Assembly (NCBI GenBank): GCA_964016885.1
Contig: OZ024745.1
Coordinates: 66,960,001 to 67,024,000 of the forward strand
Source: Eledone cirrhosa
Taxonomy: Eukaryota
Reading direction: 5' to 3'
DNA: 64,000 bases
Both the position numbers and the translations under genes were made by a program. Positions 11,001 through 64,000 of this stretch are shown in pieces (position 1 is the stretch's first letter; each line of letters opens with the position of its first letter). The notes under the pieces are model-generated. The model did not search any database, was not told the origin of the DNA, and saw nothing but the letters and a program-made list of their open reading frames with translations.

Positions 11001-11291
11001 TGTTGTTAATAATAATGTTGTAAATAATGTTGTTAATAATGATTTCTTTATTAACCACAAGGGTTTACATAAAGTAGACATTAAGGACAGTGCAGGACAA
11101 TACAGGACGGTACAAATGGGCATTTCTGCGTTTAAAAAACAAAAACAGAGGATGTAACAAAAAAATAACAATGAAAAATTCCCCAATAGGGGGGAGACTT
11201 CGGAGGGACATTTGTGGAGAAAGCCCAGTAAAAGGCCACAGTGACCCTGACCACCAAGGCAAGTGCACTCTCCCAGTTTTCCACTTTTAAT

Positions 11292-14200
11292 TTACAGATA
11301 CGTACTCAGAGTAGGCCCATTCACTCGGGCCATTCTTGCTTCTCTCACCCATCTTTCAACAAAATGCTGGGAAGAGAGCACTTCCCTCTCTACTCTGATT
11401 TTCCTTTTCAAATGAAATTTGAAAAAGTCAATCAGGGCATCACCGAAGAGGTAAGTGCTCGTCTTCAGCCCTTTCAAACGTCTCCACCATACTATCTCTT
11501 TCACCATGGCCACCAGACAGATAAAAACTGCCTGCCCTTCCCAGCTAAAGGAAGAGGGCGGGGCATCCCTGCCCGATTGGTCGAGGGCTGTGAGCGCCTG
11601 AAGACATTCCAGTCTCGAGACGTTCCCTCTCGGTCTTCGCTTGACCCAGGACTGCAGCTCAGTCAAGGAAACGAGCTGGGGAAATACGTGTCTAGCAAAC
11701 GGCAACCACAGCTGATCACCGTCGAGGAAGAGGTGGAGATGTCGTAGCCTGAGCGCGTGTCTGCGCATGATCAGCCACGGCATTCCCAGCTCTCCACGTA
11801 GCGGGTGTTGACAGCAGATGGACCGCCTGACCATCGGAGCGCGTCCCTTCCACAAAAAGCGAAAGAACAAACGCTCCAGCGCAGTCAGGCGGGGCTTAGG
11901 ACAAGGTGCGACGGTCAGGCGGTAGCAGATGACAGACGCGATGTACGCGTTAGCCACCTCCGCTCGACCTTTCAGGGATAGCTTACTCTCCGCACATTTC
12001 TGGGTGAGAGAAGCCACCCTGCTCGTCACCTCGTCCCAGTTTTTGTCCGTCTGGAGGTCCGGACCGAACCAGACCCCAAGCAATTTAACCGGTCCGTCCG
12101 TCCAGCGTCCGACGACGCTCTAGGACGGCATGGACCTACCTCTCCAGGTTCGAGCTGCAGGACCACTGACTTTTCCTGGTTGATCATTGCTCCTGCCACC
12201 GCTTCGTATTCTCTTAGTGTAGTACCGATCGCCTCGATGAGTTTGGCGTTCGACACCACTACGGTGACATCGTCCGCATATACTGACACGGATCTTCCGC
12301 ATCCTAGTTCGGGCGGGACGCCCCTCAATATCTCCAGTTTATGCAGTAATGGCTCGAGAGTCAATACGTACAAGAGGGACAAGAGGGGACATCCTTGGCG
12401 GACCGAGCGCATGATGTTGAACGGTTCCGAAAGGTGACTGTTCACTCTCACCACAGAGCAGATGTCGCTGTGCATAGCAGTGATCCAGCCTCTGAAGACG
12501 GGCCCAAAGCCAGCCGCCCTCAGGATTGCCGCTAGGTAACGATGGTCGACCCTATCGAAAGCTTTCGACTGATCTAAATTGATCAAGGACCCACCCGTGC
12601 CAGGTTCCCTAGCTACCCTCTCTACGATGTATCGCATGAGGTGGAAGTTGTCGTGGATGGATCTGTCGGGAATGGCGCATGTCTGCGCCTCTCCCACCAG
12701 ACGACCAACGACAAGCGCCAACTTCTTTGCTAGCACCTTGGCCAAAATCTTGAACTCTGTGTTTAGCAGAGTTATGGGCCTGATATTATCTATGTTATCC
12801 CCCTTGTTCGGATCCTTTCTCAGCAGTGCCACCGCTCCTTGGCTCACAGAGCTGGGAATTCTCCCGTTATGTTGCCAGTTGCAGTAGACGTCCGCCAAGA
12901 GGCCTCCGAACAAGTCTGGCATCTGTACATAAAGTTCATAGGGCAGACCATCCAAACCAGGCGATTTACCCCTTGTGCAGCCAGTCATTGCCTCCCGTAC
13001 TTCAGCGGCTGTTATAGGCTTTTCGCAACACTCCGCATCAGTGGCCGAGAGCCGCGGCAGTCCGTCGAGGTAGACACTAAAGTCCATCCCTCGACCCGGC
13101 CCACCGCTGCCCCCGAACAGCTGAGCGAAGTGTCGCTGAAAAGCTTCACACATTTGCCCGGGATCGAGTAGCATGCGCCCGTTGTGGTCCACCAAAGACC
13201 GGATCGTGGCTTTGTTGCCACGATGCGCCTCCGTCACTCGGTCCCATTGAACGGCTTTCGTCCCCTCGTGTCTGAGAGCATGCACCCTAGCTCTGACAAC
13301 GCAGCCTTCGTGCTTTGCATTGAAGAATTGGTCAAGGGCCAATTTCGCCGCAAGCACGTCGGTCGCGATGCCTTTGCTAAGCGCCTCGTCTCTTTTCTAA
13401 CTAGTTCTCCCTCTGCTCTATTTTTCACTATTGCTAAAGCATTACTAAACCTAATGGATTCTATTCTAATCGCTCTTTTCAGAGCAAACCACCACTTGTT
13501 GTTGACGATGGCCCCCGTCAACGCCCGCTTAACTAGTTCACTAATCCGGTCTCTGTAGGCCTTGCGCGCTGGTAAGGACGCATTTAGCTTCCAGTAGCCG
13601 GGTCCTCGTCTATGAAGCCTATCTAAGTCAAGCACACAGATCACGAATCTGTGGTCCGTATAGCTGACTATCTTGAATTGTGGACAGCCTATGCTAGTCC
13701 TATCTATTTCCCTACAAAATACTCTATCTAGATATGATCTGGATGACCCAATGCGATTCGTCCAAGTCCACATTGGCACATTCGGGAAATCCAATCGGTA
13801 CCTGTCAGACGCCTGAGCAGGTTGGTGAGGCTCTTGCACCCTCCACCCCTATCTGCTAATCCCACACAGTCCCAGCGTGCATCTAAGATCCCGTTCCAGT
13901 CGCCCACTAACACTAAAGAGCGGGACGTTCCAAGAAAGGTCTCCAGACGCCGGAAGAAATCAGGCCGCCCTGCTCCTGTCGGGGCATAGACGGCCACTAG
14001 CCTGAAAGCTTGCCCGTCTCCGCTGGTCACGTCCAGCACCACCAACTTACCCTCTGGGTCCAGGAAGATGGCCCGTATGGCGAGATCCAAACCTCTCCTA
14101 AAAAGCACAGCAACTCCTCCCCCCGATCCAGGACGGCCGGGAGATGCGTACACATCGTAGCCGCCGAAGATCGATGCGAAGGCCCGTGCTTCGGAGATTC

Positions 14201-14321
14201 TGGTCTCGCTGATGGCCACTACATCTATGTTTAGTGACCTGAGGTCGTTGAGCAGATGACCCTGCTTCCATGACGACCCCAAGCCACGCGCATTTATGCT
14301 GCCTATTCTGAGTGAGGTCAT
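11292..14321 (-). pseudogene. Tx1 ORF2 (APE endonuclease and reverse transcriptase), frameshifted, C-terminal zinc finger deleted
   Basis: SINARGL, ISET, VGDWN, SYLDRVF, YTDH; KSPGLDG, RPITLLN, DQSKAFD, RQGCPL, YADD. Confidence 0.92.
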
Positions 14322-14356
14322 GTTTAAAATAGAGTGGAAAAGATAGGAAAGACCAC

Positions 14357-16443
14357 TTACCTTCTCTCAGAGGAAGGATGGTTTCACCATCCCTTTTCAC
14401 TTGATCGTCTGGTGAAGGGACCGTTGAATCGCCCCTTCGGCTGGTCGTCGGCTCATCTGTGAGTATAACCGAATATACCCTCCGGTTGAGTGTCCCTCCT
14501 AGGTCTCTGAAATCACCAACTGCGTTGGGGAATTTCGTTTTAATGTTTGTGTATTGTTTCTGTGCTATGTTTACCAGTCTTATGTTCGTTGGTGTTTTGA
14601 TTGGTGCTGGTATTATGTAGTCGTGCTGTAAAATGTCTGTGTGTTCAATTATGTAGGTCATTAATTTCTTGTTGTGTGTATTTATTGCTGTGCATTTGTT
14701 TTTCTGGGGGTGGGGGGGGGGTTCTGCTATTTTCTTGTCGTTGTTGCTGGGTGTGTGTGTTTTGTTGTGTTTGCGATGTTGGTGCTGGTGTTGAAGGTGT
14801 TGTTGTTGTTGGCGATGGGGTTTCCTCCGGCGGTGATGGTGGTGCTAGTGTGGGTGGTGATGGTGTTGGTAGTGTTGCTGCTGTAAGTCTTTTTGCTGTA
14901 GCCTTTACCCTTTTTTCGTTTCTTTCCTCCCTTTTCGAAGGCGACGATGCGCTGCTTCTGCGTTTGTGCCTTCTTGCGACATTTTGCCATCCCTCTCCCA
15001 CCTCACACTCCATGTCCGATTCTGTGAGGTTGGGGAGGGGTACCAGCTCCATTCTTTCACTTGTTGTTGTTGGTGATGTTTGCAGTGGAGTCTCTGTTGC
15101 AGCAGCAGTTGGTATTGTTGTTGTTGTTGTTAATACTTCCACTGCTGTTCTTGATTTCCGTGGCGTGGGTATGGGTGCCACGGACCTATCCTTCCTGGTT
15201 TCCGCCTGTCCTGTTGCTGGTAGCTGTGGAGCTGGTTTCGGAAGGAGGGGGGTTTTCTCCTTTCTCAGGGTGTTCTCATTGCAGAAGGCTCTGAGGTGAG
15301 TCTTCGATCCACAGCGAAAGCATTTCGGGCGTTTTCCCTCAACACTTATGGGCAGTTGAGTGCCGTTATCGAAGTCTATCACATCCGAGATAGCTTCGAT
15401 GCACTTCTGGTTGGTTTGGATTAACATCTCAATGGAGGTGCCGACTCAATCTTCTCTTACTTTTTTCTATACTTGCAGTACAGTTGTTTTGTCCTCAATT
15501 CCGACGAGGACAGATGCGGCCAGCCAAGAAGGGGCCATCCCGGGGGGGGGGGGTCAGTTTGACCCTCACAATTGTTTGTCCGCAGTAGGAGGGCACCAAC
15601 ATCATTTCTTCGCTCCTTAGGGTCACTAAGGATTGAGCCTTTGCCTCCTGGGGTGTGGCAAAAAGCACGTCCACGGTGGCATATTTCTTGCCTCGGGTGA
15701 TATGCGTTTTCCGCTGCCTCACAGACCCTAAGGCTTTTTGTATTTGAGCCTCTGTGGCTCTTTCAACCCTACGGGATTTTGTGCTTACTGTACGGTACAT
15801 GACCGTACAGTGCTGTTGGGTTTCGAAATATGTTTCGGCTGCCTTGCAGATTGCTCGGTGTCCAGTTTTCGTCACCATCTTCTTTGCTTCCTGTAATTCC
15901 TCATTTGTTATAAGGATGGTTCCCAGGTTCTTTGCGATACCTGAAAACGAGATTGGTTTTTCTTTGTTGTTGTTGTTGTTGCTGTTACTTTTGTTGTTGC
16001 TGCTGGTAGTATGACTGCCGCCGCTGTTGTTGCCGCTGTTGTTGTTGCCGCTGCTGTTGTTGTTGTCGCTGTTGTTATTGCTGTTGCTGCTGTTGCTGTT
16101 GCTGTTGTTGTTGTTGCTGTTGCTGTTGCTGCTGTTGTTGCTGCTGCTAATGCTGTTGTTGTTTATGCTGGTGTGGTGCTGATGCTGTTGCGGCTGCTAC
16201 TGTTGTTTTCCTTGTCACTGTTGCTGTTGATGCTGTTGTTATTACGGCTGCTACTGCTATTATCCATGACGTCAGACGAATGAAATGGGTTTTCGTATTT
16301 TCCACACACCTTTTTCGTCGTTGTCGTCGTCGTGGAGAAGTGTTCCACGTTTTGCACGTGACGATTGAGGAAGTAGTGACGATTGAGGAAGAAGAAAACG
16401 GAATGAGTGGGAGTGACTTGTGAAAATTCTTTTTTGTAGCCAT
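14357..16443 (-). pseudogene. Tx1 ORF1 (gag-like, CFRCGSKTHLRAFC knuckle), frameshifted
   Basis: Starts MATKKNFHKS, has an N/S-rich tract, the knuckle and a P/T-rich tail; homologous to 58335-60433. Confidence 0.85.
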
Positions 16444-17300
16444 GATTTCTTTGGTTTAAAATAAATATTGGGCACAACACCCCAATAAGCGGTTATTTAA
16501 CCCCGAAGGGCCAAATAACGAGCAGAAAGACCCCTCTCACGAGGAGGGGGGTGTTTTTGTCTACAATTTGGTTAAAGTTTTAAACAATTTACAATTGTTA
16601 TAGCGGTTAAAATTTACTATACCTTACAGAGCCGAGCCTCCATCGACCATGGCATTCAATAATAATAATAATGTTGTTAATAATAATGTAAAATTAAAAT
16701 ACAAATATCCATAATTCGTATTCTGCAGAATGTACGTAACACATGTTTCACTCTATTCCGAATATTACTCAAGTATTACATCTAAGAAACACAAGTCGGT
16801 AAGTCGTGATATCAAATCGATTGCAACGATGTCTCTCTAGTTAACACACATATATACATACACAAGCTTGACTTTCTTTTTTATATATGCTGATGAGAAA
16901 TTCTGGTTGTAGCTGTCCTATCATTTTATAATGTATCCTTTACTATTTATGACAATAAGGTGATAATTGACTGCTTTTTCTATTGGTAACAATATAAGAG
17001 AAGGCCAAAGTATTGCTGAAAATACTAAGGAAATCAAGTTTCGGGGAAGAAAAGTTTTTGCATCATATTCTTACATATGTATGCATGCATCGTCCTGTAA
17101 CGCCTGATACAGTTGTAGGAGCACAGTAGTGGCATACGGCCAGTCTACAGGATTTTAAGCCTAGCGAAGCTCATCCCTCTTCATGTTGCATGTATACAAA
17201 TATATACACACAAACATTGGGTTTTTGAGAGGTGCAGCGACGAAACTGAATGTTGCTTATTCCATCTCCAAAACAGTGATTTGTGTAATAGGATTATAAT

Positions 17301-27911: not shown

Positions 27912-28087
27912 GGAGCTTCCAACAGTAATGGTTGCATTCTTTAAGGGTATGTCAATATTTATTTATAAAACTGGTCTATATTATATTTTATCTGATGAAA
28001 GCACACCATAATTTAACTTGGTGTCCTTGAAATATCTATAATGAAATAAATATGGGTTTATAAATATAGTTTCCATTTGTTAATATC

Positions 28088-28088
<1 letters not shown>
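27909..28088 (+). mobile_element. Hammerhead-bearing PLE-type 3' fragment between (TA)n tracts
   Basis: A second copy lies at 49345-49528. Confidence 0.75.
27985..28047 (+). ncRNA. Minimal type I hammerhead ribozyme
   Basis: ATTTTAT-CTGATGA-AAGCACACCA..TGGTGTCCTT-GAAA-TATCTA-TA-ATGAAAT. Confidence 0.75.
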
Positions 28089-28134
<46 letters not shown>

Positions 28135-29891: not shown

Positions 29892-30380
29892 AGAAAAGAC
29901 TCAAGGCAATACTGGTTGAACATAAAAATATAAACTGCCACCCAATTAAAGCACAACCGACTTATTGTTTGAGACCATACATTAAAAATATGTTCTGTTG
30001 GAGAAGTCAAATGTCCACTTTATGTCGGTGTAGTGAGAAAGAGGGAAGAGAGGGAGGATATCTATGGACCATTGTTGAAGGTTTTGCAGATCCAGTATCT
30101 AAGATAAACGTTCAGCTTCATTCACGTTATTATAGGATATATACCAATTCATATGGACCAAAATATACCTGAACTTGGACTTGTGGAGAAAGAACGTAAC
30201 ACTTTAATTCATATCATATAAATGGTTGCGAATCGAGAACCTTCAAAATTTGCAGAACATTCTTACGATTCAAAGAATGAAGGCTTACAAAACAGTAGTC
30301 TGCAGTTTCCCTCTTTTATAACTTTGCCACTCGGAAGGTGGCCGGTAAAAATTAGAGTCGAAATTAAGAGAAAGAGAGAA
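29892..30380 (+). mobile_element. Degraded 5'-truncated copy of RLE LINE family A
   Basis: Aligns with about 600-1086, with the same 3' hairpin and terminus; a CATA-like remnant precedes it and (CATA)n follows it. Confidence 0.85.
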
Positions 30381-30462
30381 CATACATACATACATACATA
30401 CATACATACATACATACATACATACATACATACATACATACATACATACATACATACATACA

Positions 30463-30491
<29 letters not shown>
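30381..30491. repeat. (CATA)n joining LINE A to LINE B
   Basis: Seen directly. Confidence 0.95.
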
Positions 30492-30493
<2 letters not shown>

Positions 30494-32112: not shown

Positions 32113-32228
32113 TCTCACTGTGTAACACACTTCTCTCTGTGTATTTGTGCTCAGATGAAAATTCTCTGTACTTCTCCCAGCTAGTATTATTATTACTGTG
32201 AACTGCGGAATACTTTAATTCCGATCTT

Positions 32229-39485: not shown

Positions 39486-39903
<418 letters not shown>

Positions 39904-40277
39904 TATATAGAGAGAGAGAGAGACAGAGAGAGAGGGAACAGAAGAGAGAGAGAAAGAAAGAAAGAGTGAATGCATGAAGCCATATACGGTATGGTTATGT
40001 ATAATAAACATACAATGCCCATGCTATGAATATTGTTAATTATGATCATGTCACAGATTTCTTAGTAACTGTGTGAGGACATCAGATAGGTATTCCTAGA
40101 TATTTATCCGAAATCAGTGATCTTTACTCATTCGGTACTGAGACAATCACAAGCTATACCTTATATTCTTTTGGGGATGTATAACATCGACTGGATGTCC
40201 GCATTGCATGTATTGTAAATAAAACATCTGATGGAGATGTTCATTTACCAGTAGCGAAAATTTGACCGTCTAGGATT

Positions 40278-43794: not shown

Positions 43795-44796
<1,002 letters not shown>

Positions 44797-49344: not shown

Positions 49345-49528
49345 TATCCAGGAGGTTCCAACCAGAATGGTTGCATTTTTTAAGAGTATGTCAATATTTA
49401 TTTATAAAACTAACCTATATTATATTTTATCTGATGAAAGCGCACCATAGTTTGCTCTGGTGGCCCTTGAAATATGTATAATGAAATAAATATGGTTTTA
49501 TAAATATAGTTTCCATTTGTTAATATAT
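49345..49528 (+). mobile_element. Second copy of the minimal-hammerhead element (ribozyme at 49424-49487)
   Basis: ATTTTAT-CTGATGA-..-GAAA-TATGTA-TA-ATGAAAT; ends in (TA)n. Confidence 0.78.
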
Positions 49529-49550
49529 TGTATATATATATATATATATG

Positions 49551-49626
<76 letters not shown>

Positions 49627-50975: not shown

Positions 50976-51105
50976 CTTACTCTCTTCCTATCTGTTTATC
51001 TTCCCCTCTCTCTCATTTCCTCCCTCATTTTTGTATGCTTTCTGTAAAGCTAAATCTACTAAAGATCGAACCTTCTATTTCGCTCACCAATAGACATTGA
51101 CAGTA

Positions 51106-51350
51106 TAGGGATGTGGTCAGACGCCATGCTTTTCTTACGGGATCGATAAATAAAGTCCCAGTAATGCACTGAGGTCGAATCAATCGATTTACCCTCCCCC
51201 AACATTGCTGGCCTTGGCCCTAAAGTAGAACCAATTATTATTATTCAAATCCCGCCGAGGTTAACTTTGCCTTTCATCCTTACGGAGTCGATAAAATAAA
51301 GTACCAGTAATACACTGGATATTTGCTGGCCTTGTGCCAAAAGTAGAAAC
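51106..51350 (+). mobile_element. Two tandem SINE copies separated by (ATT)n
   Basis: 51106-51232 and the 5'-truncated 51246-51350 each end TAGAA.C.ATTATT. Confidence 0.85.
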
Positions 51351-51367
51351 AATTATTATTATTATTG

Positions 51368-54300
51368 TTCTTTGAGTCTCAGTCATTGATGTTAGTTAAC
51401 TGGAAAGTTTGTTGAAATGAATATCAAGCCACTACCTGCAGCCTCAGATATTCAGGACGTATCGGAGGGTTCTTGCTGTTCCCAGCAAGCATGCCTTTTG
51501 AAGTGTTCCAAAATGCGGGTCGGGGCCAATTTTCTTTAACCATCCCTGAAAACTATTTGAGATAGTACCTAATGCGCCTATGACAATCGGGACCACTTTG
51601 ACTTCATGGCAGTTCCAAATCATTTTTACCTCCCACTTTACGTCCTGGTATCGGTTAATTTTCTCCCTCTCCTTCTCTTGCACTCTTGTGTCGAATGGGC
51701 AGGCCACATCCACAATCAGACACTATTTCTTTCCTTGTCCAAAACCACCAGGTCAGGTCTATTGTATTACAGTTTCTTGTCCGCCTGTATCCTAAAATCT
51801 CACAGCACCTTCACCTGATCGTTTTCTATCACCATACCACTTCTCAGAATGAGGTAAATTGTTTACTTTGCATAGGTGCCAGTGGATCACCCTGCCTATC
51901 GCATCATGTCTCCAGCCTTTATAGTGAGTCTGTACTAGGCGTTTACACTCGGATACAATGTAAGCCACAGTCTCCTCTCTCTCTCTCTCCACATATCCTG
52001 CACAGTGGGCTAGCTTCCTCCTTGTAAATATGGTGTTTCAACCACTTCGTTTTGAGGGCCTGCTCTTGCGCAGCCATTAGCATTCCTTCTGTAGCCTTTT
52101 TAAGGTCTCTTCTTTTCAACCAGTTCCATGTCTCTGGATCTCTGAATTCAGTTTTCTCAAAGAAGGTACTATGAGGGATTTTTCATGTAGGCTGCTCTTT
52201 CTCCTTGTTGTTATTTCCTCCTTGGACATCCCCTTGTCTATTGTCCTCTCCTTCAGTACGATTCTGAGCATTGGCTCCTTACTATCAGTCACGCATTTGT
52301 GTAGGTTGTTTTTCTCCATCTTAACGCAGTCCTCTATGCTGATAAGACCTCTTCCGCCTTCAGATCTCCTTAAGTAGAGTCTATTGACATCACTCCTCTT
52401 GTGGAACATCTTGTAGATAGGCAATAGCTTCCTAGTCTCCCTATCCACTTCTTTTTGTTCAGGAATATTCCATCTCAGAATTCCCTCGCTGTACCTAATA
52501 ATAGACACAGCTCGGGAATGTACTGCACTTATGGCATTCCTACTGTTCAGATGTGACTTTAATACGCTCCTTACTCTCCGAATGTACTCAGATCTTATGA
52601 ATTACTTCATTTTTTTTTTCTTGATGTCATCAGCCTCCAGAACACCCGAACACTTGTATCCTTCTTCAGTGTCAATTTCCTTTATCATCTCACCTGTTGG
52701 TTCCTGGATTCCGTTGCTTCTGCTCAATTTACCCCTCTTCATCACAAGGACTCCACACTTACTAATACCAAATTGCATACATATATTATTGCTGAAAATA
52801 CGGACAGTGTCAACAAGCACATCCAACTCCTTCTCACTCTTCCCGAAGAGCTTAAGGTCGTCCATGAAGAGGAGGTGATTGATGGTAAGCTCTCCCTTTC
52901 CCAACTTGTATCCTGCTCTCCCTTTTCGCAGTATAATGGTCAGGGTATCAGGGCAAGGACAAACAACAGAGGGGACAGACTATCTCCCTGGAAGATTCCT
53001 CTCTTGATCTTCATGCCTCCCAAGGATTCTCCATCTGATGTTAACTCTGTTTTCCAGGACTTCATACTTTTTCTCAACAACTGTCTGATGTTATCTGCCA
53101 CCTTGAAGATCTCTAGGCTTTTGGTGATCCAAGAATGAGGCACCATGTCAAATGCCTTTTTGTAGTCTATCCATCCCATGGCAAGACCAGTGTGTCTCCT
53201 CTTGCAATTCCTCATTACCATCTTATCAATAAGTAACTGGTCCTTTGTACAACCGGACTTCTTTCGGCATCCTTTCTGTTCGTCCGGTAACAAGTTGTTT
53301 GTGTGGAGGTGATGGTAGATTTCCTCAGACACAATGCTTGTCAACAGTTTCCACATTACGGACAGACATGTGATAGGTCTATAGTTGGTAACATCATTAC
53401 CCTTGATTCGGTCTTTCATTACTAGAACTGTGGTACCTTTTGTCAACCACTCTGGTACCTCACCTGACATCAAGTAGTCATTGAACACGGTTGTCAGTTT
53501 CGGGTGGAGGGATGTTATATTTTTAATCCAATACCCCTGCACACCATCTGGGCCTGGTGATTTCCAGTTGGTTAGTTTTTTGGCCTGCCCCTTAAGAGTT
53601 TCAACTGTGATACTCAAATCAGTTTGTTGGTGGCCCTGTTCACTAATCTCCTTTTGTACTGTCTCAATCCACACTGCCTGGTCATTATGTTTAACGTCCT
53701 GCTCCCATATTCCTCTCCAGAATGTCTTAGTTTGGTCCGCCTCAGGGATCAAGTCGTTGCCTCTTTCTTTCCCTTCAAGCTGTCCAAACAACATCTTCTG
53801 GATGTTGTGAAACATGCGGTTCTCTCTATACTGACTGACTCTGCTCTCATATCGCCTAATTTTTGCACTCTTTGCTACAATGCGTTGCTTCAGTTCCTCT
53901 ATGATAATATTTAGCTTTTTCCTCCTAGTTTTGTACTTTATTTCCAGTCTACTTTTAGTGTCTATGTTCTTTAGTGTCCCATTCGGTAGGGACTCAAGCT
54001 TTCCCATATCATTTCTCATTTCCCTGATTTGACCATTCAGTCGTTTCTTCCACCAAGGTTCTGATCTTTCTTGTTTGTTGTTTCCTCTCGCTTTTATGCC
54101 AAGTAATTTCCTCACCGCATTTGCTGTTGCTTTGAGGATATTGTTGCACTGGTGAAGGCTCCTCGCCTCAAGGTATGGGATGACTTTGTTTACCTTAGCT
54201 GTTGTTTCTTTTAACTCTTTCCTGTCTACAAATCTTAGGCTCATAGGTTTCCCACTATCATTGTTCATTTCATCTACCACTAAGTTTAGGATATCAACCA

Positions 54301-54682
54301 AATCTTGTCCTAGCTCGTCAGCATTCATCTCCTCAATGGCCGTATCTTTGTTCCAGGTATTATTTATTTCAGCATTCAGATCATTGTCTGCTTCAGATAG
54401 TTCCTCCGTTCTCTCAACCTCTTCACCTTCATTACCCACTGGCTCGTTTGCCTTGGCATACTCCACTCTCCATTTCCAACCTAATCTCTCTGCTCAGTTC
54501 CTCCAGTTCCAGCTCGCTTATCCACAAATTAGTTCTTATTACCCGAGCCTGCCCGGCCAATTTTTGTTCATTTAATTTAAATAGACCGATCTCGTTCCAG
54601 ATCTTATGCATCCGTTTCCTATAGCCTTTTTCCTTGGGGTTACTCTTCAGGTAACATTGCATAACAGTTCTATTCAAATCTT
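51368..54682 (-). mobile_element. Dong/R4 RLE LINE copy X, near-complete ORF, degraded
   Basis: N-terminal VMQCYLKSNP..RKRMHKIW, RT motifs KSPGPDG, DYKKAFD, FQGDSLSP, LFMDD, then RHD and RLE; several frameshifts; ends in (AAT)n. Confidence 0.95.
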
Positions 54683-54696
54683 CTTCTTCATCATCA

Positions 54697-54731
<35 letters not shown>

Positions 54732-54741
54732 GTTATTGTTA

Positions 54742-57691
54742 TTCCTTGAATCTCAGTCATTGATGTTGGTTAACTGGAAAGTCCGTTGGATTGAATATCA
54801 AGCCACTACCTGCAGCCTCAGATATTCAGGACGTATCGGAGGGTTCTTGCTGTTCCAAGCAAGCATGCCTTTTGAAGCGTTCCAAAAAGCGTGAAGGGGC
54901 CGATTTTCTTTAACCATCCCTGGAAACCTTTGGAGATAGTCCCCAGTGCGCCTATGACAATCGGGATCACTTTGACTTCATGGCAGTTCCAAATCCTTTT
55001 CACCTCCCACTTTAGGTCCTGGTATCGGTTAATTTTCTCCCTCTCCTTCTCTTGCACTCTCGTGTCGAACGGGCAGGCCGCATCCACAATCAGGCACGAT
55101 CTTTTTTCTTTGTCCACAACCACCAGGTCAGGTCTATTGTGTTCCAGTTTTTTGTCCGTCTGTATCCTAAAATCCCACAGCACCTTCACCTGACTGTTCT
55201 CCATCACCGCCTCTGGCCTATGCTCATACCATTTCTCAGAATGTGGTAGATTGTTTACTTTGCACAGGTGCCAGTGGATCACCCTGCCCATCACATCGTG
55301 TCTCCAGCCCTTATAGTGGGTCTGGGCTAGGTGTTTACACTCGGACACAATGTGAGCCACAGTCTCCTCTCTCTCTCCACAGATCCTGCAAAGTGGGCTA
55401 GCCTCCTCCTTGTAGATATGGTGCTTCAACCACTTCGTTTTGATGGCCTGCTCCTGCGCAGCCATTAGCATTCCTTCTGTAGCCTTTTTGAGGTCTCCTC
55501 TTCTCAACCAGTTCCATGTCTGTGGATCTCTACATTCAGTTTTCTCAAAGAAGGTACTATGAAGGGATTTTCCCTTAAGGCTGCTCTTCCTCCTTGATGT
55601 TATTTCCTCCTTGGATATCCCCTGGCCTACTGTCCCCTCCTTCAGTACAGCTCTGAGCATTGGCTCCTTACTATAGGTCACGTATTTGTATAGGTTGTTT
55701 TTCTCCATCTGAACACAGTCCTCTATGCTGATAAGACCTCTTCCACCCTCAGATCTCCTTAGGTAGAGTCTATCGACATCACTCCTCTTGTGGAACATGT
55801 TGTAGATAGTCAATAGCTTCCTAGTCTTCCTATCCATTTCTTTTTGTTCAGCAACATTCCATCTCAGAATTCCCGCACTGTACCTAATAATAGACACAGC
55901 TCGGGAATTTACTGCGCTTATGGCATTTCTGCTGTTCAGATGTGACTTCAATACGCTCCTTACTCTCCGAATGTATTCAGTTCTTAACAATTCCTTAATT
56001 TTTTTGTTCTTTATGCCATCAGCCTCCAGAACGCCCAAATACTTGTATCCTTCCTCAGAGTCAATTTCCTTTATCATCTCACCTGTTGGTATCTGGATCC
56101 CGTTACTTCTGCTCAACCCACCCCTCCTCATCACAATGACTCCACATTTACCAATACCAAACTGCATACATATATCACTGCTGAAAATACGGACAGTGTC
56201 AACAAGCACATCCAACTCCTTCTCACTTTTCCCGAAGAGCTTAAGATCGTCCATGAAGAGGAGGTGATTGATGGTAAGCTCTCCCCTTCCCAACTTGTAT
56301 CCTGCTCTCACTTTTCGCAGCATAATGGTCAAGGGCATCAGGGCAAGGACAAACAACAGAGGGGACAGGCTATCTCCCTGGAAGATACCTCTCTTGATCT
56401 TCACGCTTCCCAAGGATACTCCAGTTGATGTCAACTCTGTCTCCCAGGACCCCATACTCCTGCCCAGCAACTGTCTGATGTTATCTGCCACCCTGAAGAT
56501 CTCCAGGCTTTTGGTGATCCAGGAATGAGGCACCATGTCAAATGCCTTTCTGTAGTCTATCCATCCCATGGCAAGATCAGTGTGTCTCCTCCTGCAATTC
56601 CCCATTACCATCTTATCAATAAGCAACTGGTCCTTTGTACCACGTGACTTCTTTCGGCATCCTTTCTGTTCGTCCGGTAACAAGTTGTTTGTGTGGAGGT
56701 GATGGTAGATTTCCTCAGACACAATGCTCGTCAACAGTTTCCACATTACGGGCAGACATGTGATAGGTCTATAGTTGGTAACATCATTACCCTTGATTCG
56801 GTCTTTCATTATCAGAACTGTGGTACCTTTTGTCAACCACTCTGGCACCTCACCCGACACCAAGCAGTCATTGAACATGGCCGTCAGCTTCGGGTGGAGG
56901 GATGTTAAATGTTTAATCCAATACCCCTGCACACCATCTGGGCCTGGTGATTTCCAGTTGGTTAGTTTTTTGGCTTGCCCCTTAAGAGTTTCAACTGTGA
57001 TACTCAAATCAGTCTGTTGTTGTGCCTGCTCACCGATCTCCCTCTCTGCTGTCTCAATCCACCCTGCCTGGGCATTGTGTCTAACATCCTGCTCCCATAT
57101 TCCTCTCCAGAATGTTTTAGTTTGTTCCGCCCCAGGGATCAAGTCGTTGCCTCTTTCTTTGCCCTCAAGCTGTCCAAACAGCATCTTCTGGTTGTTGTCG
57201 AACATGCGGTTCTGTTTATACTGACTGACTCTGTTCTCGTATCGCCTGATTTTGGCACTCTTTGCTACAATGCGTTGCTTCAATTCCTCTATGATAATAT
57301 TTAGCTTTTTACTCCTAGTTTTGTATTTTATTTCCAGTCTATTTTTAGTGCCTATGTTTTTTAGTGTCCCATTCAGTAGTGACTCAAGCTTTCCTATGTC
57401 ATTTCTCATTTCCCCGATTTGCCCACTCAGTCGCTTCTTCCACCACGGCTCTGCTCTTTCTTGTCTGTTGTTTCCTCTCGCTTTTATACCAATTAGTTTC
57501 CTCACCGTATTTGCTGTTGCTCTGAGGATATTGTTGCACTGGTGAAGGCTCCTCGCCTCAAGGTATGGGATGACTTTGTTTACCTTAGCTGTTGTTTCTT
57601 TTAACTTTTTCCTGTCTACAAATCTTAGGTTCATAGGTCTCCCACTATCATTGTTCAATTCATCTACCACTAAATTTAGGATGTCAACCGA
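54742..57691 (-). mobile_element. Dong/R4 RLE LINE copy Y, 5'-truncated, ORF open
   Basis: Same family as X; flanked by (AAT)n on both sides. Confidence 0.95.
54818..57670 (-). CDS. Reverse transcriptase, CCHC finger and restriction-like endonuclease (950 aa, N-terminus missing)
   Basis: Uninterrupted ORF: YRPITCL, DYRKAFD, FQGDSLSP, LFMDD, CRIC..HIVSEC, RHD, RPDLVVVD, EKINRY. Confidence 0.9.
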   Translation of the reverse strand: MVDELNNDSGRPMNLRFVDRKKLKETTAKVNKVIPYLEARSLHQCNNILRATANTVRKLIGIKARGNNRQERAEPWWKKRLSGQIGEMRNDIGKLESLLNGTLKNIGTKNRLEIKYKTRSKKLNIIIEELKQRIVAKSAKIRRYENRVSQYKQNRMFDNNQKMLFGQLEGKERGNDLIPGAEQTKTFWRGIWEQDVRHNAQAGWIETAEREIGEQAQQQTDLSITVETLKGQAKKLTNWKSPGPDGVQGYWIKHLTSLHPKLTAMFNDCLVSGEVPEWLTKGTTVLIMKDRIKGNDVTNYRPITCLPVMWKLLTSIVSEEIYHHLHTNNLLPDEQKGCRKKSRGTKDQLLIDKMVMGNCRRRHTDLAMGWIDYRKAFDMVPHSWITKSLEIFRVADNIRQLLGRSMGSWETELTSTGVSLGSVKIKRGIFQGDSLSPLLFVLALMPLTIMLRKVRAGYKLGRGELTINHLLFMDDLKLFGKSEKELDVLVDTVRIFSSDICMQFGIGKCGVIVMRRGGLSRSNGIQIPTGEMIKEIDSEEGYKYLGVLEADGIKNKKIKELLRTEYIRRVRSVLKSHLNSRNAISAVNSRAVSIIRYSAGILRWNVAEQKEMDRKTRKLLTIYNMFHKRSDVDRLYLRRSEGGRGLISIEDCVQMEKNNLYKYVTYSKEPMLRAVLKEGTVGQGISKEEITSRRKSSLKGKSLHSTFFEKTECRDPQTWNWLRRGDLKKATEGMLMAAQEQAIKTKWLKHHIYKEEASPLCRICGEREETVAHIVSECKHLAQTHYKGWRHDVMGRVIHWHLCKVNNLPHSEKWYEHRPEAVMENSQVKVLWDFRIQTDKKLEHNRPDLVVVDKEKRSCLIVDAACPFDTRVQEKEREKINRYQDLKWEVKRIWNCHEVKVIPIVIGALGTISKGFQGWLKKIGPFTLFGTLQKACLLGTARTLRYVLNI

Positions 57692-57761
<70 letters not shown>

Positions 57762-57764
<3 letters not shown>

Positions 57765-58089
57765 TTTGAGTCTCAGTCATTGATGTTGGTTAACTGGAAA
57801 GTTTGTTGAAATGAATATCAAGCCACTACCTGCAGCCTAAGATATTCAGGACGTATCCGAGGGTGCTTGCTGTTCCCAGCAAGCATGCCTTTTGAAGCGT
57901 TCCAAAAAGCGTGAAGGGGCCAATTTTCTTTAACCATCCCTGGAAACTTTTTGAGATAGTCCCTAGTGCGCCTATGACAGTCGGGATCACTTTCACTTCA
58001 TGGCAGTTCCAAATCCATTTTACTTCCCACTTTAAGTCCTGGTATCGGTTAATTTTCTCCCTCTCCTTCTCTTGCACTCTCGTGTCGAA
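57762..58089 (-). mobile_element. Dong/R4 LINE copy Z, severely 5'-truncated
   Basis: Last ~330 bp of the X/Y family, between AAT/ATT tracts. Confidence 0.93.
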
Positions 58090-58334
58090 TAATAATAATA
58101 ATTATTATTATTATTATTGAATGCTATGGTTGACGGAGGCTCGGCTCTGTAAGTTATTGTAAATTTTGAACGCTATAACAATTGTAAATTGTTTAAAACT
58201 TTAACCAACTTGTAGACAAAAACACCCTCCTCCTCGTGAGAGGGGTCTTTCTGCCCGTTATTTGGCCCTTCGGGGTTAAATAACTGCTTATTGGGGTTTT
58301 GTGCCCAATATTTATTTTAAACAAAAAAAACAAC

Positions 58335-60433
58335 ATGGCTAGGAAAAAGAATTTTCATAGGTCACTCCCACTCATTCCGTCTTCTTCTTCCTCAATCGTC
58401 ACTACAGCAGAGAGAAGATTATCTCTCTCCCTCCCTTCTTTAAATGTGTCTCTCTCCCTCCCTTCTCTTTCGCAAGCGACGACAGAAAAGAAAAGTCTCG
58501 TGCAAAGCGTGCAAGATTTCTCCACGACGACGACGACAACGACGAAACAGGTGTGCGGGAAATACGAAAACCCATTTCATTCGTCTGACGTCAGGAATAA
58601 TAGCAGTAGCAGCCGTAATAACAACAGCAACAGTGACAATGAAAACAACAGTAGCAGCCGCAACAGCATCAGCAGCAGCATAAACAACAACAGCATTAGC
58701 AGCAGCAACAACAACAACCACAGCAACAGCGGCGCCGGCAGTAGTCGTAGTACCTACAGCAACAACAAAAGTAACAGCAGCTCTGACGACAACAACAACA
58801 ACAACAGCAGCAAAGAAAAACCAATCTCGTTTGCAGGTATCACGAAGAACCTGGAAACAATCCTCATAACAAATGAGGAATTAGAGGAAGCGAAGAAGAT
58901 GGTGACAAAAACCGGACACCGAGCAATCTACAAGGCAGCGGAAAAATTTTTCGAAACCCAACAGCACTGTACGGTCACGTACCGTACAGTAAGTACAAAA
59001 TCCCGTAGGGTGGAAAGAGCCACAGAGGCTCAAATACAAAAAGCCTTGGGGTCTGTGTGGCAGCGGAAAACGCACATCACCCGAGGCAAGAAATATGCCA
59101 CTGTAGACGTACTTTTTGCCACACCCCAGGAGGCAAAGGCTCAATCCGTAGTGACCCTAAGGAGCGAGGAAATGGTGTTGGTGCCCTCCTACTGCGGGCA
59201 AAAAATTGTGAGGGTCGAACTGACCCACGTCCCCCTCGGGATGGCCCCTTCTTGGCTGGCCGCGTCTGTCCTCGTCGGAATCGAGGACAAAACAACTGTA
59301 CTGCAAGTACAGAAAAAAGTAAGAGAAGATTGGGTCGGCACCTCCATTGAGATTATAATCCAAACCAACCAGGAGTGCATCGAAGCTATCCCGGATGTGA
59401 TAGACTTCGATAACGGCACTCAACTGCCCATAAGTGTTGAGGGCAAACGCCCGAAATGCTTTCGCTGTGGATCGAAGACTCTCCTCAGGGCCTTCTGCAA
59501 CGAGAAGACCCTGTGAAAGGAGAAAACCCCCCTCCTTCCGAAACCGGCTCCACGGCTACCAGGAACAGGACAAGCGGCAACCAGGAACGATAGGTCCGTG
59601 GCACCCATACCCACGCCACGGAAATCAAAAACAGCAGCAGCAGTGGAAGTATTAACAACAACAACAGCAATACCAAATGCAGCTGCAACAGAGACTCCAG
59701 TGCAAACATCACCAACAACAATAAGTGAAAGAGTGGAGCTGGTACCCCTCCCCAACCTCACAGAATCAGACATGGAGTTTGAGGTGGGAGAGGGATGAAA
59801 AAAGGTCGTAAGAAGGCACAAACGCAGAAGCAGCGCATCGTCGCCTTCGAAAAGGGAGGAAAGAAATGAAAAAAGGGTAAAGTCTACTGCAAAGAGACTC
59901 ACAGCAGCAACACCACCAACACCATCACCACCCACACTAGCACCACCATCACCACCGGCGACAACCCCACCGCCAACAACACCTTCAACACCACCACCAC
60001 AAGCACCAATATCGCAAACACAACAAAACACACACACCCAGCAACAACGACAAGAAAATAGCAGAACCACACCCCACCCCCAGAAAAACAAATGCACGGC
60101 AATAAATACACACACAAGAAACTAATGACTTACATAATTGAACACACAGACATTTCACAACACGACTCCATATTACCAGCACCAATCAAAACGCCAACTA
60201 ACATAAGACTGCTAAAAATAGCACAGAAACAATACACAAACATTAAAACGAAATTCCCCAACGCAGTTGGTGATTTCAGAGACCTAGGAGGAACTATCAA
60301 CCGAAGAGTATATTCGGACATACTCATAGAAGAGCCGACGACCAGCCGAAGGGACGATTCAACGGTCCCTTCACCAGACGATCAAGTGAAAAGGGATGGA
60401 AAAACCATGCCTCCTCTACGAAAAGTACGGTAA
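58335..60433 (+). pseudogene. Tx1 ORF1 with premature stops and a frameshift
   Basis: MARKKNF..CFRCGSKTLLRAFC; TGA at 59514 and 59796. Confidence 0.85.
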
Positions 60434-60468
60434 GTGGTCTTTCCCATCTTTTCCACTCTATTTTAAAC

Positions 60469-63108
60469 ATGACCTCACTCAGAATAGGCAGCATAAATGC
60501 GCGTGGCTTGGGGTCGTCATGGAAGCAGGGTCACCTGCTCAACCACCTCAGGTCACTAAACATAGATGTAGTGGCCATCAGCGAGACCAGAATCTCCGAA
60601 GCACGGGCCTTCGCACCGATCTTCGGCGGCTACGATGTGTACGCATCTCCCAGCCGTCCTGGATCGCGGAGAGGAGTTGCTGTGCTTTTTCGGAGAGGTT
60701 TGGATCTCGCCATACGGGCCATCTTCCTGGACCCAGAGGGTAAGTTGGTGGTGCTGGACGTGACCAGCGGAGACGGGCAAGCTTTCAGGCTAGTGGCCGT
60801 CTATGCCCCGACAGGAGCAGGGCGGCCTGATTTCTTCCGGCGTCTGGAGACCTTTCTTGGAACGTCCCGCTCTTTAGTGTTAGTGGGCGACTGGAACGGG
60901 ATCTTAGATGCACGCTGGGACTGTGTGGGATTAGCGGATAGGGGTGGTGGGTGCAAGAGCCTCACCAACCTGCTCAGGCGTTTTGAACTGTCTGACAGGT
61001 ACCGATTGGATTTCCCGAATGTGCCAATATGGACTTGGACAAATCGTATATGGTCATCAAGATCATATCTAGATAGAGTATTTTGTAGGGAAATAGATAG
61101 GTCTAGCATAGGCTGTCCACAATTCAAGATAGTCAGCTACACGGACCACAAATTCGTGATCTGTGTGCTGGACTTAGATAGGCTTCATAGACGAGGACCC
61201 GGCTACTGGAAGCTAAATGCGTCCTTACCAGCGTGCAAGGCCTACAGAGACCGGATTAGCGAACTAGTTAAGCGGGCGTTGACGGGGGCTATCGTCAACA
61301 ACAAGTGGTGGTTTGCTCTGAAAAGAGCGATTAGAATATAATCCATTAGGTTTAGTAAGGCTTTAGCAATAGAGAAAAATAGAGCAGAGGGAGAACTAGT
61401 TAGAAAATTAGACGAGGCGCTTAGCAAAGGCATTGCGACCGACGTGCTTGCGGCGAAATTGGCCCTTGACCAATTCTTCAATGCAAAGCACGAAGGCTGC
61501 GTTGTCAGAGCAAGGGTGCGTGCTCTCAGACACGAGGGGACGAAAGCCGTTCAATGGGCCCGAGTGGCGGAGGCTCGTCGTGGCAACAAAGCCACGATCC
61601 GGTCTTTGGTGGACCACGACGGGTGCATGCTACTCGATCCCGGGCATATGTGTGAAGCTTTTCAGCCGCACTTCGCTCAGCTGCTCGGGGGCAGCGGTGG
61701 GCCGGGTCGAGGGATGGACTTTAGTGTCTACCTTGACGGTCTGCCGCGGCTCTCGGCCACTGAGGCGAAGTGTTGCGAAAAGCCGATAACAGCCGCTGAA
61801 GTACGGGAGGCAATGACTGGCTGCACAAGAGGTAAATCGCCTGGTTTGGATGGTCTGCCCTATGAACTTTACGTACAGATGCCAGACTTGTTCGGAGGCC
61901 TCTTGGCGGACGTCTACTGCAACTGGCAACAGAACGGGAGAAATCCCAGTTCTGTGAGCCGAGGAGCGGTGGCACTGCTGAGAAACGATCCGAACAAGGG
62001 GGATAACATAGATAATTTCTAGAAATGGGTGGAGAGGAAGCTATCCCTGAAAGGTCGAGCGGAGGTGGCTAACGCGTACATCGCGTCTGTCATCTGCTAC
62101 CGCCTGACCGTCGTACCTTGTCCTAAGCCTCGCCTGACTGCGCTGGAGCGTTTGCTCTTTCGATTTTTGTGGAAGGGACGCGCTCCGATGGTCAGGCGGT
62201 CCATCTGTTGTCAACACCCGCTACGTGGAGGGCTGGGCATGCCGTAGCTGATGATGCGCAGGCACGCGCTCAGGCTACGACATCTCCACCTCTTCCTCGA
62301 CGGTGATCAGGTGTGGTCGCCGTTTGCTAGACACGTATTTCCCCAGCTCGTTTCCTTGACGGAGCTGCAGTCCTGGGTCAAGCGAAGACCGAGAGGGAGC
62401 GCCTGGAGACTGGAATGTCTTCAGGCGCTCACAGCCCTCGACCAATCGGGCAATGTGATCGGTGGAAACTCCACCTCGGCGTTCTATAGAGGATTAGTGG
62501 AGGGGAAGAGCGACGACGTACTTGGAGAAACTCTAGGCGTCGACGAAAATCAACTAGCCAATCTCTTCGGAAGAACTTTCGGGCCAGGGCCTATGGACAA
62601 CTTCCAGAAATCTCTGGCCTGGCAGTGCTACCGAGGAGCCTTGCCAGTTCGGGATAAACTCTACAGGCATGGAGGTGCCGTCAGCCGGGCATGTCCGAGA
62701 TGCGCGCAGGGCGACGAAACCCTCCTGCACGCATTCGTCCAGTGTCCGAAAATTGCTGACTTGTGGGTTTATGTCGAACACCTGCTGTCGCGTGTAGGAC
62801 GGATCCGGCTATCATCTGAGTCCATCGTGAGGATTGCCCCGCCCTCCTCCTTTACCCGGGAAGGGCAGGCAGTGTTTATCTGTCTGGTGGCCATGGCGAA
62901 AGAGATAGTATGGTGGACACGTTTGAAAGGGCTGAAGACGAGCACTTACCTCTTCGGTGATGCTCTGATTGTCTTTTTCAAATTTCATTTGAAAAGGAAA
63001 ATCAGAGTAGAGAGGGGAGTGCTCTCTTCCCAGCATTTTGTTGAAAGATGGGTGAGAGAAGCAAGAATGGCCCGAGTGAATGGGCCTACTCTGAGTATAT
63101 ATCTGTAA
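60469..63108 (+). pseudogene. Tx1 ORF2 (APE, partial RT, C-terminal CCHC finger)
   Basis: APE motifs intact; stops at 61339, 62020 and 62245; about 780 bp of RT missing at ~62019; CPRC..LLHAFVQC present. Confidence 0.92.
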
Positions 63109-63373
63109 ATTAAAGGTGGAAAACTGGGAGAGGGCACTTGCCTTGGTGGTCAGGGTCACTGTGGCCTTTTACTGGGCTTTCTCCACAAATGTCCCTCCGA
63201 AGTCTCCCCCTATTGGGGAATTTTTCATTGTTATTTTTTTGTTACATCCTCTGTTTTTGTTTTTTACACGCAGAAATGCCCATTTGTACCGTCCTGTATT
63301 GTCCTGCACTGTCCTTAATGTCTACTTTATGTAAACCCTTGTGGTTAATAAAGAAATCATTATTATTATTATT

Positions 63374-64000
63374 ACAGTTGCATTTATCTTGCTTTATGTT
63401 CATACGAGTTATCACCAAGTCACAACCAGTGACCTCATGAGACAACAAGGTCCGCCATGTTCAAGGAAGAACATACATACTCACACATGCATCTTTAGTG
63501 TTTAGACTTGTGATGTACTTATATTGACAGAATCTTCCTTAGTATATGGGCAGTTCTCATTAGTACTATCTTTTGTATTTCTCCTATACGCGGGTTTCCT
63601 GGGATTTGCGATAAGTAATCATTAGACCTCTTAGGTATCATTCCCAGAGCGCCTACAACCACTGGTATTGTTTTAGTTCTCAATTTCCACATTTTTCCAA
63701 TTTCTATCTCCAGGTCCTGAATTTTTCAAATGTTTTTATAGATACATTCTTGTATATTGGAACAGACATATCAATTAGCAGGCATACCCTCTTTTTAATG
63801 TCCTTCAATATTATATCAGGTCTATTTGCATCTATTTTTCGGTCTGTTTGGATGCTAAAGTTCCACAAGATTGAGATGTGATCTTTTTCAAGTATGGGAG
63901 GTGGTTGATGCTCCCACCAATTCTTTTGATGGGGCAGGTCAAAATGCTTACACATTATCCAATGTATGTATTGTGCAGCTCTGTCATGCCTGTTTAGGTA
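63374..64000 (-). mobile_element. 3' part of another Dong/R4-type RLE LINE (family C)
   Basis: YLNRHDRAAQYIHW..NRPDIILKD..LIDMSVP..RTAHILRKILSI*, with the stop at 63519-63521; the 3' UTR ends in (AAT)n. Confidence 0.88.

What the first reader, a model, noticed from the sequence alone, without database searches (positions are those of the whole stretch)
51106..64000. 13-kb nested pile of seven retroelements in one (ATT)n tract, with strict family-specific orientation
Seen: SINE(+), SINE(+), Dong X(-), Dong Y(-), Dong Z(-), Tx1(+) and family C(-), with an ATT-type tract at every junction (51233, 51352, 54699, 57692, 58101, 63359) and no unique DNA between. RLE elements always read with AAT tails, whereas Tx1 and SINEs read with ATT tails, so they use opposite strands of one target. 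With the CATA and TA clusters this suggests a self-amplifying system: each retroelement group occupies one microsatellite class and regenerates it. Such piles mix sense and antisense sequence and might act as small-RNA or dsRNA source loci (inference).
Basis: partly seen in the sequence, partly recalled or inferred. Interest (0 to 1): 0.75.

Follow-up and report, generated by a model that had tools for sequence, protein, structure and literature searches.

The report
Retrotransposon stack in ATT microsatellite
Seven jumping genes have landed end to end in a three-letter DNA repeat; most of this is the known behaviour of Dong elements, but a second, unrelated element seems to use the opposite strand of the same repeat and may be what copies the small SINE elements beside it.

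Summary
The stack is real: two SINEs (+), three Dong-like copies X, Y, Z (-), a Tx1-like LINE (+) and a second restriction-like-endonuclease (RLE) family C (-), joined by 206 bp of triplet spacer. They abut end to end; none interrupts another. The left edge has no tract, and one junction holds an inverted (AAT)5. Dong's (TAA)n targeting is published. Among 18 related loci from other organisms, tracts of four or more units read AAT in 15 of 15 cases, and three loci hold head-to-tail piles. Fixed orientation follows from strand-specific nicking, as with TRAS/SART. X and Y are independent insertions (dN/dS 0.31). What may be new rests on small numbers: both Tx1-like copies sit in ATT-rich targets in the polarity opposite to Dong, the solo copy with an 18-bp duplication; their last 22 nt match the SINE end in register; and 4 of 5 SINE duplications start with ATTATT. 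That suggests a Tx1-SINE partnership whose tails seed Dong targets. No long inverted repeat supports a dsRNA source. Mostly ordinary; one testable lead.

The parts
51096..51233 (+). SINE1: older, 5'-truncated, internally deleted copy of the window's tRNA-like SINE; no ATT tract on its left
   Evidence: 67-85% identical to the other copies; left flank
51234..51245 (+). (ATT)4: SINE1 tail and target of SINE2
51246..51351 (+). SINE2: 5'-truncated copy of the younger short-body subfamily
   Evidence: 92-95% identical to the copies at 10805, 17293, 35231 and 45281
51352..51369 (+). (ATT)5 GTT spacer
51370..54683 (-). Dong-like X: RT + CCHC + RLE; lacks about 55 N-terminal codons and the 5' UTR; decayed (three 1-bp deletions, one 17-bp deletion, a 4-bp insertion, four stops in Y's frame)
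54684..54743 (+). Spacer drifting from (CTT)/(CAT) to (ATT)11, then an interrupted ATT/GTT run
54744..57691 (-). Dong-like Y: 5'-truncated (about 200 codons missing); 957 open codons with the QGD/FMDD RT motifs, CCHC, RHD and the PD..D..K RLE motif
   Evidence: best PDB hits are R2 proteins
57692..57763 (+). Pure (ATT)24
57764..58089 (-). Dong-like Z: about 325-bp 3' fragment
   Evidence: 303 and 304 of 324 columns identical to X and Y
58088..58118 (.). (AAT)5/(ATT)6 junction, a perfect 28-nt palindrome; 58087-58102 is the reverse complement of Z's own 3' junction (likely snap-back synthesis)
58119..63358 (+). Tx1-like LINE with both ends present: ORF1 (58335-59513, CCHC knuckle), ORF2 from 60469 (APE endonuclease, RT, zf-RVT); dead (779-bp deletion in the RT, stops)
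63359..63373 (+). (ATT)5: 3' target of Tx1 and AAT tail of family C
63374..64000 (-). Family C: 3' end of a second Dong-like RLE family, frameshifted; runs off the window
   Evidence: 42% identical to Y over 155 aa; falls among the Dong-like sequences, not with the CATA families
11041..16657 (-). Solo copy of the same Tx1-like family with an 18-bp target duplication starting ATTATT and three extra ATT units at its 5' end, next to a SINE in the same polarity

Best explanation
This is a graveyard of independent target-primed insertions in a short (ATT/AAT)n tract, probably in an octopod genome. An old SINE left an ATT tail. Each later element nicked one strand of a tract, primed reverse transcription there, and left tract on both sides (target duplication, tail and slippage), giving the next element a target. 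Dong-like RLE elements prime on the ATT-reading strand and so always read AAT. The Tx1-like element and the SINE prime on the AAT-reading strand and so read ATT. Orientation is set by the strand nicked, not by selection for a function. Shown here: anatomy, polarity, target duplications, independence of X and Y. Taken from the literature: Dong's TAA target and strand-specific insertion. Inferred: which strand each enzyme nicks, the order of insertion, true target specificity of the Tx1 family, and that Tx1 mobilises the SINE (about 0.4).
For: Dong targets TAA repeats in insects, molluscs and cnidarians (PMC7998251 passage; PMC3812793 passage). The B. mori Dong 5'-junction primer carries 7 TAA units on the sense strand (PMC3774820 passages), the same polarity as here. 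In 18 related loci (177.5 kb), tracts of 4 or more units number 15 AAT and 0 ATT; 8 of 8 loci with tracts of 5 or more units read AAT (p=0.008); L003, L004 and L009 hold head-to-tail copies with AAT spacers at some junctions. X vs Y: dS 0.196, dN 0.061, different 5' truncation points, uniform 88-94% identity along their length. The solo Tx1 has an 18-bp duplication starting ATTATT. Of 10 SINEs outside the pile, 5 have duplications of 11 nt or more (null rate 0.5%), and 4 of the 5 start with ATTATT. TRAS and SART enter one repeat in opposite directions (PMC7265360 passages). Tandem SINEU and Tx1 insertions at a shared target are reported (PMC4494074 sections 14 and 16). Dong-R4 and L1-Tx1 are among recently active O. 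vulgaris families (PMC13282606).
Against: There are only 2 Tx1 copies, and the solo target is an interrupted repeat. SINE targets are hexamers, not long tracts: none of the 10 outside copies has an ATT run of 5 or more units. At a 3-unit threshold the external tally is 34 AAT vs 9 ATT. A control dinucleotide was also skewed (7 AC vs 20 GT), so tract counts are not independent. Nine of 18 related loci have no tract of 4 or more units, and L011/L012 form a pile without AAT spacers. No empty site was available.
Confidence: 0.8

Rival explanations
1. Tails, not targets: each element simply carries a triplet tail on its RNA, and clustering reflects passive build-up in a tolerant region plus annealing of the tail to any nicked complementary site.
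For: SINE duplications begin with only 6 matching bases. The SINE ends in ATT in most copies whatever the site. TE hotspots exist in O. vulgaris (PMC13282606). Passive accumulation has been proposed for Waldo-A/B (PMC3812793).
Against: 5'-truncated Dong copies have AAT tracts on their 5' side too (Y here; L006, L007, L013), which a tail cannot supply. All 6 junctions are tracts, against a 0.13% background. The solo Tx1's ATT is duplicated target. This rival probably does hold for the SINE.
Confidence: 0.12
2. X, Y and Z arose by local tandem duplication or unequal crossing-over at the tracts, or by assembly error in a repeat, not by separate insertions.
For: There are three same-family copies head to tail with microsatellite joints, and a very long pure (ATT)24.
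Against: The copies are 91-94% identical with a coding-constraint signature (dN/dS 0.31; 111 of 237 differences at third codon positions). Private sites are interleaved (13 X, 12 Y, 7 Z), and each copy has its own 5' junction.
Confidence: 0.04
3. The pile is kept as a piRNA/dsRNA source or TE trap because it mixes sense and antisense sequence.
For: Read-through from the Tx1 5' end would run antisense into family C (inference). Molluscs express piRNAs widely (PMC6128900, search listing only).
Against: No long inverted repeat and no opposite-strand homology between elements. The opposite-facing elements are unrelated in sequence. Equivalent Dong piles occur in unrelated hosts, so orientation needs no functional cause.
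Confidence: 0.04

Closest known systems
Dong (R4/Dong clade; B. mori Dong, DongAG, DongBG, ostracod Dong, octopus Dong-R4)
   Same: Single ORF with RT, CCHC and RLE; inserts in (TAA)n with TAA on the sense strand; present and recently active in octopus.
   Different: Here two Dong-like families (X/Y/Z and C, 42% identical) share one tract with an APE-type element and SINEs. No named Dong sequence was aligned.
TRAS and SART in (TTAGG)n
   Same: Two families enter one asymmetric repeat in fixed opposite orientations, set by the endonuclease.
   Different: TRAS and SART are both R1-clade APE elements in telomeres (clade recalled). Here the pair is cross-group (RLE vs Tx1-like APE) in a dispersed microsatellite.
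Microsatellite-targeting Tx1 families Kibi (TC)n, Koshi (TTC)n and crocodilian (TTCC/TTTC)n
   Same: Two-ORF APE LINE with a microsatellite target and a target duplication.
   Different: The target here is ATT-rich, which is not among the targets listed in the passages read.
SINEU / Tx1-Mar partnership in crocodilians
   Same: A SINE and Tx1 families share a target and form tandem insertions.
   Different: Here the SINE has a tRNA-like head, the target is a microsatellite, and there is a 22-nt 3'-end resemblance; SINEU was linked by target, age and shared heads.

Membership tests
R4/Dong clade (X, Y, Z) | Single ORF with central RT | tested here: met
   957 open codons in Y; RVT_1 E=4e-23
R4/Dong clade (X, Y, Z) | C-terminal CCHC knuckle and restriction-like endonuclease | tested here: met
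   C768-C785 knuckle, RHD797, RPD853, D870, K886, invariant or nearly so in alignment A1; top PDB hits are R2 proteins
R4/Dong clade (X, Y, Z) | N-terminal Myb/SANT-like domain without zinc fingers | tested here: inconclusive
   X keeps a piece 76% identical to P0001 residues 61-126; homologs show a conserved Trp-rich N-terminal block and no evident zinc fingers; Pfam gives no Myb hit. The domain was originally found by HHpred, which could not be run against a library here.
R4/Dong clade (X, Y, Z) | (TAA)n target, TAA on the sense strand | tested here: met
   3 of 3 copies have AAT at the 3' end, X and Y also on the 5' side; Z has an inverted piece first; related loci 15 AAT and 0 ATT
R4/Dong clade (X, Y, Z) | RT phylogeny with named Dong/R4 references | not testable with these tools
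   None of the 120 listed homologs carried an informative name
R4/Dong clade (family C) | RLE C-terminus grouping with Dong-like sequences; AAT tail | tested here: inconclusive
   42-46% identical to Dong-like rows; its own branch is not strongly supported (91/58) in a 174-column tree; followed by (AAT)5 on its own strand
Tx1 clade | Two ORFs; ORF2 with N-terminal APE endonuclease, RT and C-terminal zinc finger | tested here: met
   Exo_endo_phos E=1.5e-14 and zf-RVT E=5.5e-9; LINE-1 endonuclease is the top PDB hit; full-length relatives of about 1150 aa show EN-RT-zf
Tx1 clade | ORF1 with a CCHC knuckle and RNA-binding domains | tested here: inconclusive
   CX2CX4HX4C is intact in the solo copy and has H changed in the pile copy; no Pfam hit; Atlas look-alikes are zf-CCHC and ZCCHC3 RBD clusters at 0.87-0.90, a lead only
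Tx1 clade | RT phylogeny with named Tx1 rather than L1 | not testable with these tools
Tx1 clade | Sequence-specific target with duplication | tested here: inconclusive
   2 of 2 copies are in ATT-rich sites of the same polarity; the solo copy has an 18-bp duplication
tRNA-derived SINE | Pol III A and B boxes / tRNA head | tested here: inconclusive
   A- and B-box-like motifs are visible in the alignment (consensus recalled); ARAGORN and Rfam found nothing
RTE-derived (Ceph-type) SINE body | Body similar to an RTE 5' UTR | tested here: inconclusive
   Exact-word search of the PMC5786205 supplement for three short motifs of this SINE showed no relevant match (2 passages of 6 hits to the shortest motif were seen); an exact-word search is weak
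piRNA cluster / dsRNA source | Long inverted repeat in the locus | tested here: not met
piRNA cluster / dsRNA source | Uniquely mapping small RNAs | not testable with these tools
   no read data

The most novel reading that the evidence does not exclude
An octopod Tx1-like family nicks the AAT strand of (ATT)n, the strand opposite to the one Dong uses, and is the autonomous partner of an abundant tRNA-like SINE, recognising a shared 22-nt 3' end. SINE tails then seed ATT tracts that recruit Dong-R4 and Tx1. This would be a cross-clade feed-forward loop coupling SINE expansion, microsatellite load and LINE hotspots, with parallel loops on (CATA)n and (TA)n.
Probability: 0.3. Interest if true: 0.6.

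Novelty: new variant of a known kind. Interest (0 to 1): 0.33.

Why it matters
Octopus genomes are dominated by SINEs, LINEs and microsatellites and have TE hotspots whose cause is open (PMC13282606, PMC12988792). If targeting plus target regeneration builds such stacks, hotspots would have a simple mechanical cause that can be counted directly in existing assemblies. If the Tx1 family drives the SINE, a major octopus SINE would gain a candidate partner LINE, and ATT would join the known Tx1 targets. The Dong part alone is ordinary.

Tried and rejected
Rfam and ARAGORN on the window found nothing. A scan of genome contigs for the SINE core found 0 matches, so no further host DNA was available and the SINE and Tx1 claims rest on this window. 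Homolog searches gave almost no names, so clades could not be fixed by named references. Local alignment of SINE 3' ends to the Tx1 end was significant for 3 of 5 copies and not for the other 2, including SINE2; only the anchored, ungapped test was clear. Folding showed no shared stable structure at the SINE and Tx1 ends (z between -0.9 and -1.25). An RTE origin of the SINE body (recalled lead) was not confirmed. Tandem duplication of X/Y/Z was rejected. A dsRNA hairpin was rejected. Rfam found no tRNA or 5S match at the 5' ends of L001, L004 and L008. Pfam did not confirm the TA family as Penelope-like. The supplement of PMC4494074, which may list further Tx1 targets, could not be read. Viral and metagenome contigs stayed unchecked.

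Full report
Observation. Sequence, self-BLAST and translated searches give this order: SINE1 51096-51233(+), SINE2 51246-51351(+), X 51370-54683(-), Y 54744-57691(-), Z 57764-58089(-), a Tx1-like LINE 58119-63358(+), and family C 63374 to beyond 64000(-). The six spacers total 206 of 12,905 bases and are all triplet repeat. Tracts of 4 or more units cover 66 of the first 51,000 bases, so 6 of 6 junctions is not chance. Of the 8 tracts of 5 or more units in the whole window, 6 are in the pile, one flanks the solo Tx1 copy and one follows a TA run. Three corrections apply. The elements abut; none interrupts another. There is no tract left of SINE1. And 58088-58115 is a perfect 28-nt palindrome, so the tract is not of one polarity.

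Host. The named relatives of the Tx1-like element are an Octopus sinensis gene model carrying a fragment and an Argonauta hians protein 68% identical to a close relative, P0188. An octopod host is inferred, not shown. Dong-R4 (1129 insertions) and L1-Tx1 (421) are listed among recently active O. vulgaris families (PMC13282606, parts 1-2 of 3 read), and a Dong element was noted in O. bimaculoides (PMC9115989 passages).

X, Y, Z. Y keeps 957 open codons with RT, CCHC and RLE motifs, and its best solved relatives are R2 proteins. Full-length homologs are about 1,140 aa and up to 66% identical, so all three copies are 5'-truncated, each at a different point. X and Y differ with dS 0.196 and dN 0.061 (ratio 0.31), evenly along their length. 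Z shares 303 and 304 of 324 columns with them, with interleaved private sites. They are separate insertions from diverged source lineages. X is the more decayed: five indels and four stops against none in Y, and 15 changes at conserved columns against 5. Family C is a second RLE family, 42% identical to Y over 155 residues; it falls among the Dong-like rows of a weakly resolved tree, apart from the CATA families.

Is the polarity general? Dong's TAA target is published for insects, molluscs and cnidarians (passages of PMC7998251, and PMC3812793). The B. mori 5'-junction primer has seven TAA units on the sense strand (PMC3774820 passages). As an independent test, a scan with alignment A1 returned 18 loci from prokaryotic genome records that look like eukaryotic host DNA (inference from microsatellites and composition). 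Oriented by the element, tracts of 4 or more units number 15 AAT and 0 ATT, in 9 of 18 loci; at 5 or more units, 8 of 8 loci read AAT (p=0.008). L003, L004 and L009 contain head-to-tail copies with AAT at some junctions. Against this: at 3 units the tally is 34 to 9, half the loci have no tract of 4 units, L011/L012 overlap and pile up without AAT, and a control dinucleotide was also skewed, 7 to 20. The RLE half of the finding is therefore real and ordinary Dong behaviour.

The Tx1-like element. It has two ORFs, an APE endonuclease, RT and a zinc finger. A second copy at 11041-16657(-) is 94.3% identical, has the same two ends, and is also dead. It sits in an interrupted ATT repeat with an exact 18-bp duplication starting ATTATT, plus three extra ATT units at its 5' end. 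So the ATT after Tx1 is duplicated target, and both copies face the way opposite to Dong. Two copies cannot establish strictness. The Tx1 microsatellite targets in the passages read are TC, TTC and TTCC/TTTC (PMC4494074 passages). Searches listed no paper showing an ATT- or TAA-targeting Tx1. However, Repbase, Kojima and Fujiwara 2004 and the supplement of PMC4494074 were not seen, so novelty is unproven.

The SINE. Ten copies outside the pile had a locatable 3' end; two fragments without one were dropped. Five of the ten have flanking direct repeats of 11-20 nt (null rate 0.5%), and four of those five start with ATTATT. The SINE thus primes at short ATTATT sites in the same polarity as Tx1, which is weak specificity and may be tail annealing alone. 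The SINE's last 22 nt match the Tx1's last 22 nt in register (mean 13.8 of 22 over 11 copies, against 4.7-9.1 for the other LINE ends). Only 1 of 121,538 other 22-mers in the window scores as high. Caveats: the 22-nt length was chosen after seeing the match; that one rival 22-mer lies in the 3' UTR hairpin of the CATA-B element; gapped local scores were significant for only 3 of 5 copies; and RTE or other LINEs absent from the window could match better. Tx1-driven SINEs have a precedent in SINEU (PMC4494074 sections 14 and 16). I put the partnership at about 0.4.

Mechanism. In target-primed reverse transcription the nicked strand primes cDNA, so an asymmetric repeat fixes orientation (established knowledge; TRAS and SART enter TTAGG in opposite directions, PMC7265360 passages). 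Dong-like elements would prime from the ATT-reading strand, and Tx1 and the SINE from the AAT-reading strand (inferred). Each insertion leaves tract on both sides, so sites persist and multiply. The missing left tract suggests that SINE1's tail was the seed (inferred). The one polarity exception fits the same chemistry: 58087-58102 is the exact reverse complement of the 16 nt at Z's own 3' junction. This is what would be expected if Z's truncated cDNA snapped back on its primer, a junction class described for R2 (PMC11371274 passages). The order of the other insertions cannot be fixed.

CATA and TA clusters. Two further RLE families, about 30% identical to Y and 50% to each other, end in (ACAT)n on their own strand and lie head to tail at 1-2637 and 29903-32113. 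This supports one repeat class per family. The TA-associated family looks Penelope-like by eye (GIY-YIG-like motif at 26130-26456, recalled), which Pfam did not confirm; TA has no polarity.

Small RNA. The longest inverted pairs within the pile all involve the tract palindrome (25 of 90 shown). Opposite-strand BLAST found otherwise only short local hairpins and weak matches of 45 nt or less. Elements facing opposite ways are unrelated, so the locus cannot fold into long dsRNA. Antisense read-through is possible but untested.

Other papers consulted as passages only: PMC4640811, PMC5786205 (plus a supplement word search), PMC12988792 (it raises TE-into-TE insertion as an untested idea), PMC4758252, PMC3747384, PMC8967140.

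Verdict. The feature is real and largely explained by known target-specific retrotransposition. It is a new variant of a known kind because an RLE element and an APE element share one microsatellite on opposite strands and a Tx1-SINE link is possible. Interest 0.33; 0.6 if the feed-forward reading holds genome-wide (probability 0.3).

Noticed in passing
window 1-2637 and 29903-32113: Two RLE families (50% identical to each other, about 30% to Dong Y) lie head to tail with (ACAT)n spacers at two separate loci; possibly R4-like families with a CATA target.
   Followed up: partly
window 2559-2605: Strong hairpin (z -5.2) in the CATA-B 3' UTR whose inner part matches the SINE's last 22 nt as well as the Tx1 end does.
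   Followed up: partly
window 24897-26600, 27446-28131, 39506-39909, 49345-49573: TA-associated family with an RT-like ORF and a GIY-YIG-like piece (Penelope-like by eye, not confirmed by Pfam); ends abut (TA)n runs.
   Followed up: partly
window 10805-16690: A second, smaller ATT-polarity cluster: the solo Tx1 copy sits in the 5' flank of a SINE, both on the minus strand.
   Followed up: yes
window 54684-54731; L003:8548-8640: Triplet drift at element junctions: (GAA)/(GAT) to (AAT)n at X's 5' end, and (AAT)15 followed by (AAG)16 in L003.
   Followed up: no
L001:130-350; L004:560-640; L008:3536-3620: Dong-like elements whose 5' ends look like Pol III small-RNA heads (5S-like in L001, tRNA-like in L004 and L008, by eye; no Rfam hit). 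L001 also contains a near copy of the 23-bp RTE-like motif quoted in PMC5786205.
   Followed up: partly
L001-L018: Eighteen loci in prokaryotic genome records (MAGs and one Streptomyces assembly) carry eukaryote-type R4/Dong-like retrotransposons, many with microsatellites; they look like host contamination or chimeric contigs.
   Followed up: no
L011, L012: A pile of at least five divergent RLE elements without AAT spacers, on a long separate branch; target unknown.
   Followed up: no
window 43885-44159 and 44521-44796: A 276-bp direct repeat, 99.3% identical, next to a long TA run.
   Followed up: no
P0190: An Octopus sinensis 'tectonic-3-like' gene model begins with a fragment of this Tx1-like endonuclease; probably a mis-joined annotation.
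   Followed up: no
window 3029-3270: Two SINE fragments in tandem outside the pile.
   Followed up: no
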